Shown here piece after piece: positions 10,691-38,857 of a stretch of 64,000 bases of DNA (the first letter of the stretch is position 1; each line of letters starts with the position of its first letter). A model generated the notes under the pieces. That model searched no databases, had not been told where the DNA came from, and saw only the letters and a program-made list of their open reading frames with translations. A program made the translations under genes and the position numbers. The stretch comes from the human T2T-CHM13v2.0 reference genome, Homo sapiens: assembly GCF_009914755.1 (NCBI RefSeq), contig NC_060928.1. One strand, 5' to 3'.

Positions 10691-12792
10691 AGAGGTGCTC
10701 AGTAATTGCATGGCATGATAATTCCTTTATTTTATTACTTTTATGTCTATTAACAAATAGCATTCTCTTGAAAGATTACCTGACCTTATATTTTATGCTT
10801 GTGGAAATTTTAATTGCAGTGACAATACATCACTTTTTGATAGTTACACAGCATCCTACGATATGTCAATTCCTCCTGGCTCCAGCACTACTCAGTTGAG
10901 GCTACGGGTGCTTCTCACCTGCTGCTCCACCCTATTAAGTTTCTCCATTAGTTTTGAGTGCATGTTCTACCTCCTGTAGTGGTGAAATGTAAATTAAATT
11001 TGTTACTGTATACAGTCAGCTAAGGTTGCACATGGGCCTCAAAATACCCAAAGAGCTACCACCTGCCTGGACTGTTCCATTGGTTCTTTCTCTATGTCTG
11101 TGTATCATTCTTAATTCTTCATGAGCATTTGGCTTACTCTATTGTATCTAGGATGGAGGAATAATGGGTTTGATAGTGTCCTTGGTTATTGCAATCTCCC
11201 ATTCCCATGGTAGTCAGACCTTGTCTCTATCACCCACTTGCTGGTTGTCATGTGCTCCAAATAGGGAAGCACATATGGAACTATGAGGCTTCACCTTTCC
11301 CAAATGAGAGACTTGTCAGAGCTTAGGTACTGCTGCCTCCTCTTATAAAACTAAATTCCTAATTTGTTGCCTGTCAAGACCCGCTGCAAGTTACCCAAAC
11401 CAATTTGGTGACCAATTAAGACAGCTTCCTTCACAGTCCTTACTTCAAAGAGATCCCCTGGCTTTGATTGTGTTAGGTGATATCTTGTTCCCCTGGTTGG
11501 TCTCACAAATATATTAACTATGTTTTTCCCCCTCATTTATCTTGCTGCTTTTATGATTCCAGTTCATGCTTCAGAAAAATGAGAAATGGTATGTGATGAC
11601 TTTCTGGGGAGCTCACAAATTTTTCAAACATGGAACATTGAATTTCTGAATGCCTGGGATCTACAAACAGTTCATACATAGAAGTAGGCTAAATAATTAT
11701 GACTATCAGATAAAGCTCCTAGAATTAAAAAAAATGGTCTATGTCATAACTTCAGTTATTCTACTTTTAGAGAAATATGTGTGACCTGAAGATTTTGATG
11801 TTATTCACAGGCCACACTTTAAGGTTTTATTAGCTAATGCCTCATTTAGAAATCAGATGACAGTGACATTCAGCCACTAATGTGTATGAAATGAGGACAG
11901 ACTGTCAAAGAAACTTTGGCAAAGAGTTCTAGAGGCAACCATCAATTATTTGTCTACTTTCCAATGTCATCCAAGAAAACACTAGTTTGTAAGATAAATG
12001 CTAGTAGAAATAAATAAAACAATACATATATTTCTTTAAAATTAGAAGATGATGTTAAAATTAAGGTCCATAGTTTTGTAGTATGTTATATTTGGAAAAG
12101 CATGGATTGAAATGGCAAAGACCAAATCTTTGAGTTATAGTACAAAACCTCTCTTGCTTGAGACTGTTCAGATGAAATATCAGGGAAGACGAAATTTGGC
12201 CTTTCACATCTTTGAAATTGCACCTGAAAAGCAATTCAACTTTAGCACTTTTGTTTCTTCCCAAGAATCTGATAATGGGAGTAGGTTCATTCAAGTTTGG
12301 GTCATGACTTCTACACATTTGATTAGTGGAATATATAATATTTTGTGCTGAATCAAATTGCAAAACCTCTGCTGAATATATTGAAAAATGTGGCTGACCC
12401 ATAATTTGGGATGTGAAATATAATATGTAATTTTTTTGGCTTTGCATCTTAGAATTTTTTGTGACCATCTTCAGAACATGCTTACTTTCTCCTCTAATAT
12501 AGTCTCACTGGTGATGCTTTGCTTTCATTGCAATTTTTGGTCCCATTAATATAATGCTAAATACCTTCCTCTCATTATTCCACAACTTATAGCCCTGATA
12601 AAGTTATGTCTTTAATTTCTTAGTCACCAAGACCCTAACATCAGCTAAAACGTTTTTTATATATGTGTGTGTGTATATATGTGTGTGAGTGTATATATAT
12701 GTGTGTGTATATATACACACACATTTCAATCCACGCTTTTCCAAATATAACATACATGCATGCACACACACACCACACACATATACATACAC

Positions 12793-12970
12793 GCACACCA
12801 CAGACATACATACGCATAAGAAAAAATTTAGTTCCAAACAACATCTCTTCTCTGGTGATTTTATATATATATCTCTCCCATATATATATAATATATATAT
12901 ATAATCACCAGAGAAGAGATGTTGTTTGGAACTAAATTTTTTCTTATGTGTATGTATGTCTGTGGTGTGC
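12793..12970. repeat. Inverted repeat, 68-bp arms (67/68 match), 42-nt AT-rich loop
   Basis: 12793-12860 is the reverse complement of 12903-12970 with one CpG-type mismatch; flanked by TG/CA microsatellite. Confidence 0.95.
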
Positions 12971-14167
12971 ATGTATGTATGTGTGTGGTGTGTGTGTATG
13001 TATGTGTGTGGTGTGTGTGTATGCATGTATGTACATCTGTGGTGTGCGTATGAGAGAGGAGAGAGACAATGAGAAAGAGAGGGCATGTCTGTGAGTTTTC
13101 TTCTCTCCATGTGCTTTCTTTTTCCTACTTATGTTTCTATGAATTCAAAGTAATCAGAGAGTAAGACACTAGGAAATTATGAAACTAGTTATTGTAATAT
13201 GAAGTTTCCACGTAAAGGAGCATTTTCATTTACAGCATAACAAAGAACACTTGGTTATGGGTTGAAGGGATCTCAGAATGTCCTATCTTGTGTAAAAAGC
13301 ATATCCCTTCCTTTTAGAATATGCCTTGTTGTCTAACAAAGAGAAGTAACCCTAGTTTCAAATATTAAGCTTCCTCTAATCAATACAACCTTAATGTGAA
13401 TTAGATCATTAAATCTTTGTCAAAAGAAAAGACAGTTATGGAAGAACCAATTTTGCCTGACAGTAAGAAAGTGGAAAGAAAAGGGTAGAGATTTAAAAGA
13501 AAGACAAGTTAAGCCAAAGAAATAAAAACAAGGAAGTGGAGAGATTTTAAATATATTTTGACCTGTGAAAAGTATCACAATGTTCAACCTCATAAGCCCA
13601 TCATATATCAGGTCAGAGAGTGCCCAGAATTATTATGGTAACTGTTTTCTCCAAGTGAAAACTGAGCAATTTCAGTTCTTCCATAGGAACTGATAAAATG
13701 CTTGATGATGAGTGTTGGTTAAAATTATGTCTATTTATTAGTGGCCATGAAATTTATTGTTCTGTCTTAGGTGATTAAGTGATCTCTTGAATCAAAGGAA
13801 CTAGCTATAAGTGGGTGCTAAATTTTGCTAAGTTTTGGCCAGCTTTTACGATTCCTTAGGAGACAACAAAATTTTAGAAATTGGACACTTTCTCATCATG
13901 CTTTATTCAATAAAATACAAATCTTTAATCAGTTACTTGGACCTCATTGAGTTTTGAGGACCCCTTCACTTCACTTGTGGACTTTGGAAGTCATATGAAC
14001 ATGTTTAAAGGCTGTTAAGGAAATAAAAGTTAATCAGCAGTGTATTCATGGTCTCATACAGTCTGATGTATAATGAAAGCTGAACATTTTTAGGCTCTTT
14101 CAGTTTTCACAATAAGCGCCACACCATTATTTTAAATAAGCCACAGATTTTTAGACTAAAGAATCAT

Positions 14168-14169
<2 letters not shown>

Positions 14170-14229
<60 letters not shown>

Positions 14230-14406
14230 TTATATATATATTTATATATATATATATATTTATATATATTTATATATATATATTTATATATATTTATATA
14301 TATATATTTATATATATTTATATATATTTATATATATATATTTATATATATTTATATATATATTTATATGTATATATCTATGTATCTCTCTCTATATATA
14401 TTATAT
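14170..14406. repeat. (CT)n followed by long interrupted (TA)n/(TATATATT)n microsatellite
   Basis: Direct reading. Confidence 0.97.
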
Positions 14407-37076: not shown

Positions 37077-37806
37077 TGATATGGCATGGCTGTGTTCCCA
37101 TCCAAATCTCATCTTGTACTATAGTTCCCTTAATCCTCACATTATGGGAGGAACATGGGGGAGGTAATTTTATCATGGGTCTTGGGGTGGTTACCTCCAT
37201 GCTGTCCTCATGATAATGAGTGTGTTCTCATGAGATCTGATGGTTTTATAAGAGGCTTTTTCCCCATTTACTCAACACTTCTCCTTTCCACTGCCAAGTA
37301 AGATATGTCTTTTTTCCTTCTTGGGCTTCTGCTACGATGGTGAGATCACCTCAGCCATGTTCAAGTGTAAGTCAATTAAACCTCTTTTTCTTTAAAAAGT
37401 GCCTAATCTTTGTGTATTAGTTCATTTTTATGCTGCTGATAAAGACATACCTGAGACTGGGAAATTTACCAAAGAAGAAGGTTTAATGGATTCACAGTTC
37501 CATGTGGCTGGGAATGCCTCACCATCATGGTGGAAGGTGAAAGGCACACGGATAAGAGAAGAGAATGAGAGCCAAGCATAGAGGTTTTCCCCTTATAAAA
37601 CCATCAGATTTTGTGAGTCTCATTCTCCACCACAAGAACAGTATGGAGGAAACCATCCCCATGATTCAATTATCTCCCACTGGGTTCCTCTCACAACATG
37701 AAGAAATTATGTAAGCTACAATTCAAGAAAAGATTTGGATGGGGACAAAACCAAACCATATCACTCTGGTATGTTTTTATTAGCAGCATGAGAACAAACT
37801 AATACA
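37077..37806 (+). mobile_element. THE1/MST solo LTR nested in the provirus
   Basis: tgatatgg...ctaataca; TSD acccc. Confidence 0.88.
37413..37763 (-). mobile_element. THE1 solo LTR nested inside the nested LTR
   Basis: tgtattagttc...ccaaaccatatca; TSD ctttg/ctctg. Confidence 0.88.
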
Positions 37807-38857
37807 ACCCCCACTGTATCTGAGTAGTAACTAGCTTGCTGTTGATTTTACATGCTCCCAGGAAGAAGGGACTTGCCTTGTTGGAGATGATACTTTGGAC
37901 AGTACACTTTTGAGTTAATGCTGAAATGAGTTAAGGATTTGGGGGACTGTGGAGAAAGCATGATTGTGCTTCTAAAAGTGAAGACATGAGATTTGGGAGG
38001 GGCCAGTGGTAAAATGATATCGTTTGACTGTGTCCCCACCCAAATCTGCTTTTGAATTATAGTCTCCATAATCCCCACATGCCATAGGAGGGATCCACTG
38101 GGAGGTAATTGAATCATGGGGGTGGTTTCTCTTATGCTGCTGTCATAATAGTAAGTTCTCACAAGATCTGATAGTTTTATAAGTGTCTGGCATTTCCTCG
38201 GCCAGCACTTCTCTTTACTGCTGCAATGTGAAGAAGCGCATGTTTTCTCACCCGTCTGCCATGGTTGTAAGTATCCTGAGGCCTTCCCAGCCCTCCAGAA
38301 CTGTGAGTCAATTAAACTTCTTTCCTTTATAAATTACCCAGTCTTGGGCAGTTCTTTATAGCACATGAGAACGAACTAATACATATGGTACAGTGGAAAA
38401 TCCTAGAAATTGGGTATCAGGAGTGCTGAATTTGAATCTCAGCTGTGTCCTTACTTTGAGGAAGTTGCTCAAACTCTCTTTGTTTCAAAATCCTTATCAG
38501 AATAATATATATTATTCTATTTGTCCTGATGACCAATTGTATTATTTTAGGAATGAGGTGGATGTCTATGTGGACAGTATAAACTATAATATTCTATCAA
38601 AAGCGAGTGAATATTTTGCATTCTGTGTGGCAAAACACATTTGAGAATTATTTTAAAAGTGTACTGATGATAGCTATAGGTTTGTTATAAGGATATGATA
38701 TTGAAGTCTATTTTTAATACAGAATATTAAATATAATTCATGAAAGAAAAGCTATATTAAAAGAACTATGAGAAGTATTTTATTTTTGAGTTAATTAGAA
38801 TTAAAAGACATGGAACTGTGGCAGATAGTGACTGTTGCTTCCATAAAATGCAGAGGA

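What the first reader, a model, noticed from the sequence alone, without database searches (positions are those of the whole stretch)
12081..13032. Two-template inverted insertion creating a long hairpin inside a TA/TG microsatellite
Seen: 12722-12755 is the reverse complement of 12081-12114, about 640 bp upstream (33/34 match). It is directly fused, via a shared catac/gtatg, to ~12751-12860, which is the reverse complement of ~12903-13031 (core 67/68 match). A ~140-bp segment is therefore built from two separate local templates, both inverted and joined at a microhomology. Both mismatches are CpG-type transitions, implying a recent event. Inference: a fossil of serial template switching (FoSTeS/MMBIR or Pol-theta templated insertion) at a (TA)n break. 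The result can form a cruciform, or a long dsRNA stem if transcribed.
Basis: partly seen in the sequence, partly recalled or inferred. Interest (0 to 1): 0.7.

Follow-up and report, generated by a model that had tools for sequence, protein, structure and literature searches.

The report
Fold-back repair scar in TA repeat
A 147-base stretch in an intergenic part of human chromosome 4 consists of backwards copies of three neighbouring pieces of DNA and is likely the scar of an old break in a TA repeat, a known kind of mutation with no sign of function here.

Summary
12716-12862 is tiled by three inverted local copies: A (12712-12724, a TA-centred palindrome), B (12722-12755 = rc 12081-12114, 33/34) and C (12750-12872 = rc 12880-13032). 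They overlap by 3 nt and 6 nt (not 5) of microhomology. The unique parts have no further copy in the genome search, so it is not a MITE. Three substitutions and three to four indels between copy and donor argue against a read chimera. A and B copy the + strand left of a (TA)n run, and C is what the - strand right of it would give by folding back. The likeliest mechanism is therefore a break in the TA run, fold-back synthesis on both ends, and joining at the 6-nt microhomology (0.5). One-strand serial template switching is the main rival (0.3). 'Recent' is not supported: 2.1% divergence (CI 0.4-6.2%), no outgroup available. One clear sister event turned up in 40 other TA-palindrome loci, with no enrichment under a strict test. 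No gene and no Rfam family. New member of a known kind; low interest.

The parts
12081..12114 (+). Donor of segment B, single-copy sequence; starts with the only GTATGT hexamer in 11700-12715
12658..12715 (.). Left compound (TG)n/(TA)n microsatellite, period 16-18; inferred left side of the break, and source of segment A
12712..12724 (-). Segment A: inverted copy of 12699-12711 (perfect 26-nt TA-centred palindrome 12699-12724). Common motif, so not diagnostic on its own
12722..12724 (.). 3-nt microhomology shared by A and B
   Evidence: P of 3 nt or more = 0.067 over position pairs
12722..12755 (-). Segment B: inverted copy of 12081-12114, 33/34, CpG-type difference at 12734/12102
12750..12755 (.). 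6-nt microhomology shared by B and C (donor ends 12081-12086 and 13027-13032); inferred joint of the two break ends
   Evidence: P of 6 nt or more = 0.0025 over position pairs
12750..12872 (-). Segment C, left hairpin arm: inverted copy of 12880-13032; perfect 46-nt core 12815-12860
12873..12879 (.). 7-nt non-TA spacer between two TA runs; hairpin loop and inferred fold-back loop of the right end
12880..13032 (+). Right hairpin arm, donor of C: (AT)n run, unique 46 nt, then 23-nt tandem array that continues past the copied part to 13052

Best explanation
The 147 bases at 12716-12862 are a patchwork of three backwards copies of neighbouring DNA, likely written in when a break in a TA repeat was repaired by each broken end folding back on itself, being extended, and the two new ends being joined at six matching bases. 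Shown: tiling by A, B and C, inverted orientation, 3- and 6-nt overlaps, and no further genomic copy of the unique parts in the genome search. Inferred steps: (1) a break in a (TA)n run between the TG array and the 7-nt spacer; (2) after resection, the left + strand 3' end self-primes on TA and copies about 9 nt (A), re-primes at 3 nt about 600 nt upstream and copies about 30 nt (B); (3) the right - strand 3' end self-primes TA on TA around the 7-nt spacer and copies 150 nt or more (C); (4) the two extended ends unwind, anneal at the 6-nt microhomology and are filled in; (5) CpG-type changes and microsatellite slippage accumulate. The enzyme is inferred: Pol theta to prime, probably Pol delta for the long tract. 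The product is a neutral fossil that would form a stable hairpin when single-stranded.
For: Every base of 12712-12872 is covered by a local inverted template. All three templates are on the strands that resection of a break in the TA run would leave single-stranded, so only intramolecular fold-back is needed (follows from the coordinates). Both fold-back points are self-complementary TA runs. B's donor ends at the only GTATGT in the upstream kilobase; a 6-nt overlap has P = 0.0025. The overlap grows from 3 to 6 nt at the last joint, as described for templated insertions where secondary microhomologies are longer (PMC7165422 passages). Snap-back synthesis followed by annealing across the break is the SD-MMEJ model (PMC5728401 passages). 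Pol theta extends stem-loops from two paired bases (PMC11292364 passages). TA repeats break and are repaired by MMEJ on ecDNA (PMC13645644 passages). The right array continues beyond the copied part, marking it as the donor. Sister event at L038.
Against: Tract lengths (about 150 and 34 nt) and the 600-nt reach exceed typical Pol-theta insertions: synthesis is rarely over 10 bp and templates are typically within 30 bp, and about 30 bp was suggested as the outer limit for SD-MMEJ. Priming B on 3 nt at 600 nt is weak (P = 0.067). Segment A's 24-nt motif occurs at 91 places genome-wide, against 49 for the reversed control, so A may predate the event. The TA runs now hold only 4-6 units, and a fold of the supposed right end did not pair around the 7-nt spacer as its best structure. 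The final sequence cannot by itself separate one-ended from two-ended synthesis. No outgroup or second haplotype was available. The TA-break paper concerns ecDNA in cancer cells, not germline.
Confidence: 0.5

Rival explanations
1. One nascent strand at a fork stalled on the TA repeat switched templates serially (FoSTeS/MMBIR or chained four-point template switches): A, B, C and back on the + strand, or C, B, A and back on the - strand. No two-ended break is needed.
For: It gives the same product with the same microhomologies. Read from the - strand, B is primed by 6 nt rather than 3. Human template-switch mutations of 119 and 125 bp, and two adjacent ones of 62 and 32 bp, are reported (10.1101/2021.11.26.470150 passages). 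MM-BIR makes fold-back and serial switches with long tracts (PMC13065848 passages). Switch sites are enriched in AT-rich DNA (PMC7954356 passages).
Against: It needs four switches, including inter-strand jumps to templates up to 600 nt ahead of the fork or across the stall (point 2 ahead of point 1 cannot be intra-strand), where the two-ended model uses only fold-backs.
Confidence: 0.3
2. Two or more independent events: for example, C arose by a template switch and B was copied earlier or later (in either direction), with A an ordinary compound microsatellite.
For: A's motif is common (91 places). Ten other non-simple inverted pairs of 25 nt or more within 1.5 kb occur in 264 kb, so a B-like match is not unique by itself.
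Against: B's match ends exactly on both overlaps (12722 and 12755), leaving no untemplated base. B (1/34) and C (2/107) are similarly diverged, though the counts are tiny.
Confidence: 0.13
3. The hairpin is a MITE or fold-back transposon, or another dispersed repeat.
For: Long terminal-inverted-repeat shape with a TA-rich centre.
Against: The unique 66 nt match only the two arms in the genome. The 701 nt around B's donor match only themselves and B. The junction query hits other places essentially through its CA-rich part. The search skips very common words, so the counts are lower bounds. The right arm runs on into a local tandem array.
Confidence: 0.03
4. Assembly or read artefact (fold-back chimera).
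For: Palindromes and TA repeats are hard to sequence (recalled). No reads or second assembly could be examined.
Against: A chimera would copy perfectly. Here 3 substitutions, all CpG-type, and 3-4 indels separate copy from donors, and one piece comes from 600 nt away.
Confidence: 0.03

Closest known systems
Snap-back SD-MMEJ / inverted templated insertions of Pol-theta-mediated end joining (PMC5728401, PMC7165422, PMC11292364; passages read)
   Same: Inverted copies of flanking DNA, primed on short inverted repeats, several rounds, resolved at a longer secondary microhomology; AT-rich context.
   Different: Tracts of 34 and about 150 nt and a template 600 nt away, against tracts rarely over 10 bp and templates within about 30 bp; apparently both ends extended; germline fossil, enzyme unknown.
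Short-range template-switch mutations, four-point model (PMC7954356, 10.1101/2021.11.26.470150, PMC10710096; passages or first part read)
   Same: Reverse-complement copy of nearby DNA that creates a hairpin in one step; lengths over 100 nt and adjacent double events are on record; low-complexity context is common.
   Different: Three templates on both sides of the site, one 600 nt away; net insertion of 147 nt; no ancestral sequence here to assign an event type.
MM-BIR / FoSTeS chromoanasynthesis junctions (PMC13065848, passages)
   Same: Serial microhomology-primed switches, including fold-back, with long tracts.
   Different: Strictly local, under 1 kb, with no copy-number change beyond the insert visible in the window.
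Palindromic AT-rich repeats, PATRR11/17/22 (PMC1851657, passages)
   Same: Near-perfect palindrome of 283 bp (PATRR17 about 190, PATRR11 about 450) with an AT-rich centre (89% AT over 44 nt; 66% overall).
   Different: Non-palindromic 7-18 nt centre and asymmetric TA runs; no known translocation or length polymorphism.

Membership tests
Locally templated inverted insertion (mechanism-agnostic) | Inserted DNA is a reverse-complement copy of nearby sequence | tested here: met
Locally templated inverted insertion (mechanism-agnostic) | Microhomology at junctions | tested here: met
   6 nt (P 0.0025) and 3 nt (P 0.067)
Locally templated inverted insertion (mechanism-agnostic) | Segment absent in the ancestral allele | not testable with these tools
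   no relatives held for this genome
Pol-theta TINS / SD-MMEJ | Short tracts (rarely over 10 bp) templated within about 30 bp of the break | tested here: not met
   A fits; B is 34 nt at 600 nt, C is 123 nt
Pol-theta TINS / SD-MMEJ | Primer repeat at the break and longer secondary microhomology at resolution | tested here: met
   TA self-complementary ends; 3 then 6 nt
Pol-theta TINS / SD-MMEJ | Dependence on POLQ | not testable with these tools
   fossil event
Four-point template-switch mutation | Explained by one reverse-copied fragment (2 to 3) | tested here: not met
   needs at least two, probably three fragments
MITE / fold-back element | Dispersed copies | tested here: not met
   2 matches only, both arms; lower-bound search
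MITE / fold-back element | Discrete termini with target-site duplication | tested here: not met
   left end fused to B by microhomology; right arm continues into a tandem array
PATRR | Near-perfect palindrome of 190-600 bp with AT-rich centre | tested here: met
   283 bp, centre 89% AT
PATRR | Perfect central symmetry (needed for cruciform extrusion) | tested here: not met
   7-18 nt spacer
PATRR | Recurrent translocation breakpoint | not testable with these tools
   no variant data; searches for nearby gene names gave two unrelated COPD papers (listing only)
miRNA or other structured RNA gene | Match to an Rfam family at gathering score | tested here: not met
   0 of 41 matches at E <= 1 reach the gathering score
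miRNA or other structured RNA gene | Transcription and processing | not testable with these tools
   no annotated gene over the site (hub table); stem over 100 bp against a preferred 35 bp (PMC10710096)

The most novel reading that the evidence does not exclude
Short (TA)n microsatellites act as germline palindrome factories: both ends of a break fold back, are extended by 100 nt or more and are stitched together, leaving PATRR-like hairpins de novo. This locus and the chr3 sister (L038) would be fossils of an uncatalogued class that repeat masking hides from template-switch surveys. The one-sided CpG pattern (3 of 3 CpGs in the copy, none in the donors) would be a signature of the copying polymerase or of unequal methylation of the arms.
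Probability: 0.12. Interest if true: 0.55.

Novelty: new member of a known kind. Interest (0 to 1): 0.2.

Why it matters
As one locus it matters little: intergenic, with no known RNA or phenotype. Its value is as a clean, fully parsed germline example of multi-template fold-back repair at a TA repeat, with tracts longer than typical Pol-theta insertions, and with an exact prediction for the ancestral allele (12715 joined to about 12863 inside a TA run). If such events proved enriched at TA repeats genome-wide, they would link TA fragility to the birth of long palindromes and hairpin RNAs. My 40-locus sample did not show that under a strict test.

Tried and rejected
Paralog outgroups to polarise the CpG differences: none found, because the flanks 11950-12650 and 13050-13700 are single-copy in the search. 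Polarity is unresolved; one internal hint is the paralogous unit junction at 13047, which has CG like the copy, favouring decay in the donor at that one site. Strand-coordinated ssDNA deamination: rejected, the three changes fall on mixed strands. Enrichment of inverted copies at TG-TA-CA palindromes: the first 20 loci gave 4 of 20 against 5 of 213 background tiles (p 0.004), and all 40 gave 5 of 40 (p 0.011). A stricter criterion, chosen after seeing the data, gave 1 of 40 against 3 of 213 (p 0.50). The loose positives include a pair of opposed Alu-like tails (L026), an AT-rich minisatellite (L028) and two short AT-rich matches (L034, L051). The 40 loci are the first 40 distinct others of the 91 listed; the background is one 264-kb block of chr4 and is not matched for repeats. 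Enrichment is therefore not shown. Rfam: nothing at threshold. Literature on the locus: 8 searches showed no paper naming this site. Published template-switch catalogues could not be checked: I had no way to map the site to their reference coordinates, one PMC10710096 dataset is too large to read and I opened none of its other three files, and bioRxiv supplements are closed, so the site may be listed there. Earlier scan notes were not available.

Full report
Observation. In 300 dinucleotide shuffles of the 1,485 nt made of 11200-12650 plus the 34-nt copy, no exact inverted match exceeded 18 nt, against 21 observed. 12740-13045 folds at -125 kcal/mol as DNA (z -24.9) and -193 as RNA (z -23.0). 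In 264 kb of contiguous chr4 (plus the window), 18 inverted pairs of 25 nt or more, 90% or more, lay within 1.5 kb. I dropped 6 as low-complexity; of the 12 left, two belong to this locus, and this hairpin is the only one with an arm over 60 nt and a spacer under 100 nt.

Anatomy. Three inverted pieces tile 12712-12872 with no untemplated base. A (12712-12724) mirrors 12699-12711 in a perfect 26-nt palindrome centred on TA. B (12722-12755) overlaps A by 3 nt. C (12750-12872) mirrors 12880-13032 and overlaps B by 6 nt. Over position pairs in the plausible donor ranges, an overlap of 6 nt or more has P = 0.0025, and one of 3 nt or more at A/B has P = 0.067. The hexamer occurs once in 11700-12715, exactly at B's donor end, and seven times in 12880-13200. 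C differs from its donor by two substitutions (12792, 12814), a 2-nt insertion, a 21-nt gap in the 23-nt array and an 11-nt gap in the TA run. The loop is a 7-nt non-TA spacer. The right array continues to 13052 beyond the copied part, and the left arm ends in the B junction, so I infer that the left side is the insert: 12716-12862, 147 nt, with ends ambiguous inside TA.

Not a dispersed element. The unique 66 nt match only the two arms in the 3.1-Gb genome. 11950-12650 matches only itself and B, and 13050-13700 only itself. The junction query finds other places essentially through its CA-rich part. These searches skip very common words, so they give lower bounds. A read chimera is unlikely given the substitutions and indels, but no reads were seen.

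Mechanism. If a break lay in a (TA)n run between the TG array and the spacer, resection would leave the + strand single-stranded on the left and the - strand on the right. A and B are what the left 3' end makes by folding back; C is what the right 3' end makes by folding back around the spacer; and the two new ends are complementary over the 6 nt. This needs only intramolecular priming and one end-joining (inference; confidence 0.5). It works like snap-back SD-MMEJ (PMC5728401, passages) and inverted templated insertions, for which Pol theta can prime from two paired bases (PMC11292364, passages) and secondary microhomologies are longer than primary ones (PMC7165422, passages). TA repeats break and are repaired by MMEJ on ecDNA (PMC13645644, passages). 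Against it: typical tracts are rarely over 10 bp and templated within about 30 bp; the TA runs are now short; and a fold of the supposed right end preferred a different TA hairpin. Long fold-back tracts are known from MM-BIR (PMC13065848, passages), and template switches of 119-125 bp and adjacent pairs from human variation data (10.1101/2021.11.26.470150, passages). One-strand serial switching therefore remains a strong rival (0.3), though it needs jumps to templates ahead of the fork (PMC7954356, passages). Segment A is weak evidence: its 24-nt motif occurs at 91 places, and the reversed control at 49.

Age. Three substitutions in 141 aligned positions give 2.1% (95% CI 0.4-6.2%), with no non-CpG change. 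This fits an ape-age event better than a very recent one (human-chimp about 1.2%, recalled), unless the differences were polymerase errors. In all three the copy has CG and the donor TG or CA: the insert holds 3 CpG in 147 nt and the donors none, while the flanks hold 3 in 1,716 and 3 in 968. Direction is unresolved without an outgroup, so 'recent' is not supported.

Recurrence. I read 40 of the 90 other places with A's motif. One, L038 on contig C3, is a clear sister: about 70 nt of an Alu-like 3' end (Alu recognised from recall) and its TA/TG tail are copied in inverted orientation across the microsatellite, with a 25 of 25 core. A loose criterion gave 5 of 40 against 5 of 213 background tiles (p 0.011); a stricter one chosen afterwards gave 1 of 40 against 3 of 213 (p 0.50). 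The event type recurs; enrichment is not shown.

Function. No gene is annotated over the site (hub table). None of 41 Rfam matches at E <= 1 reaches its gathering score; the best are hairpin-shaped miRNA models far below it. Template switches have produced over 6,000 hairpins and at least 18 miRNAs in primates (PMC10710096, first of six parts read), but this stem far exceeds the preferred 35 bp. The palindrome is PATRR-sized with an 89% AT centre, yet lacks central symmetry, and a 9-bp spacer abolished cruciform extrusion at physiological salt in PATRR22-quasi (PMC1851657, passages). A hairpin in single-stranded DNA is predicted; a cruciform is doubtful.

Novelty and verdict. Eight literature searches listed no paper on this site. 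Supplementary catalogues of template switches were not read and may list it. The finding is real: a tidy, multi-template member of a known class of local inverted templated insertions, longer than usual and probably neutral. Interest 0.2.

Noticed in passing
L038:540-756 (G000:C3:15594822-15596045): Sister event: about 70 nt of an Alu-like 3' end plus its TA/TG tail copied in inverted orientation across the microsatellite (25/25 core), abutting a palindromic tandem array upstream.
   Followed up: partly
window 12734, 12792, 12813 vs 12102, 12971, 12949: All three substitutions leave CG in the copy and TG/CA in the donor; the paralogous unit at 13047 also has CG. Unexplained one-sidedness.
   Followed up: partly
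window 14170-14406: (CT)15 followed by about 208 nt of TA-rich tandem array with 10-12 nt units, 1.2 kb downstream; a much longer TA tract than those in the finding.
   Followed up: no
L028:400-800 (G000:C1:164875596-164876819): AT-rich minisatellite whose units switch orientation, 49/51 inverted match across the TA palindrome.
   Followed up: partly
L034:558-576 and 1167-1185: 18/19 inverted match 590 nt apart, each copy beside a TA/CA microsatellite; may be a short templated copy or chance.
   Followed up: partly
upstream block, window coordinates about -126711 to -126611: 34/36 hairpin with a 29-nt spacer in non-simple sequence; a candidate ordinary template-switch product.
   Followed up: no
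upstream block about -6557 to -5847 and -194860 to -194411; window 37649-38129: Nested or single inverted pairs of 28-46 nt, 250-650 nt apart, probably transposon-related; not tested.
   Followed up: no
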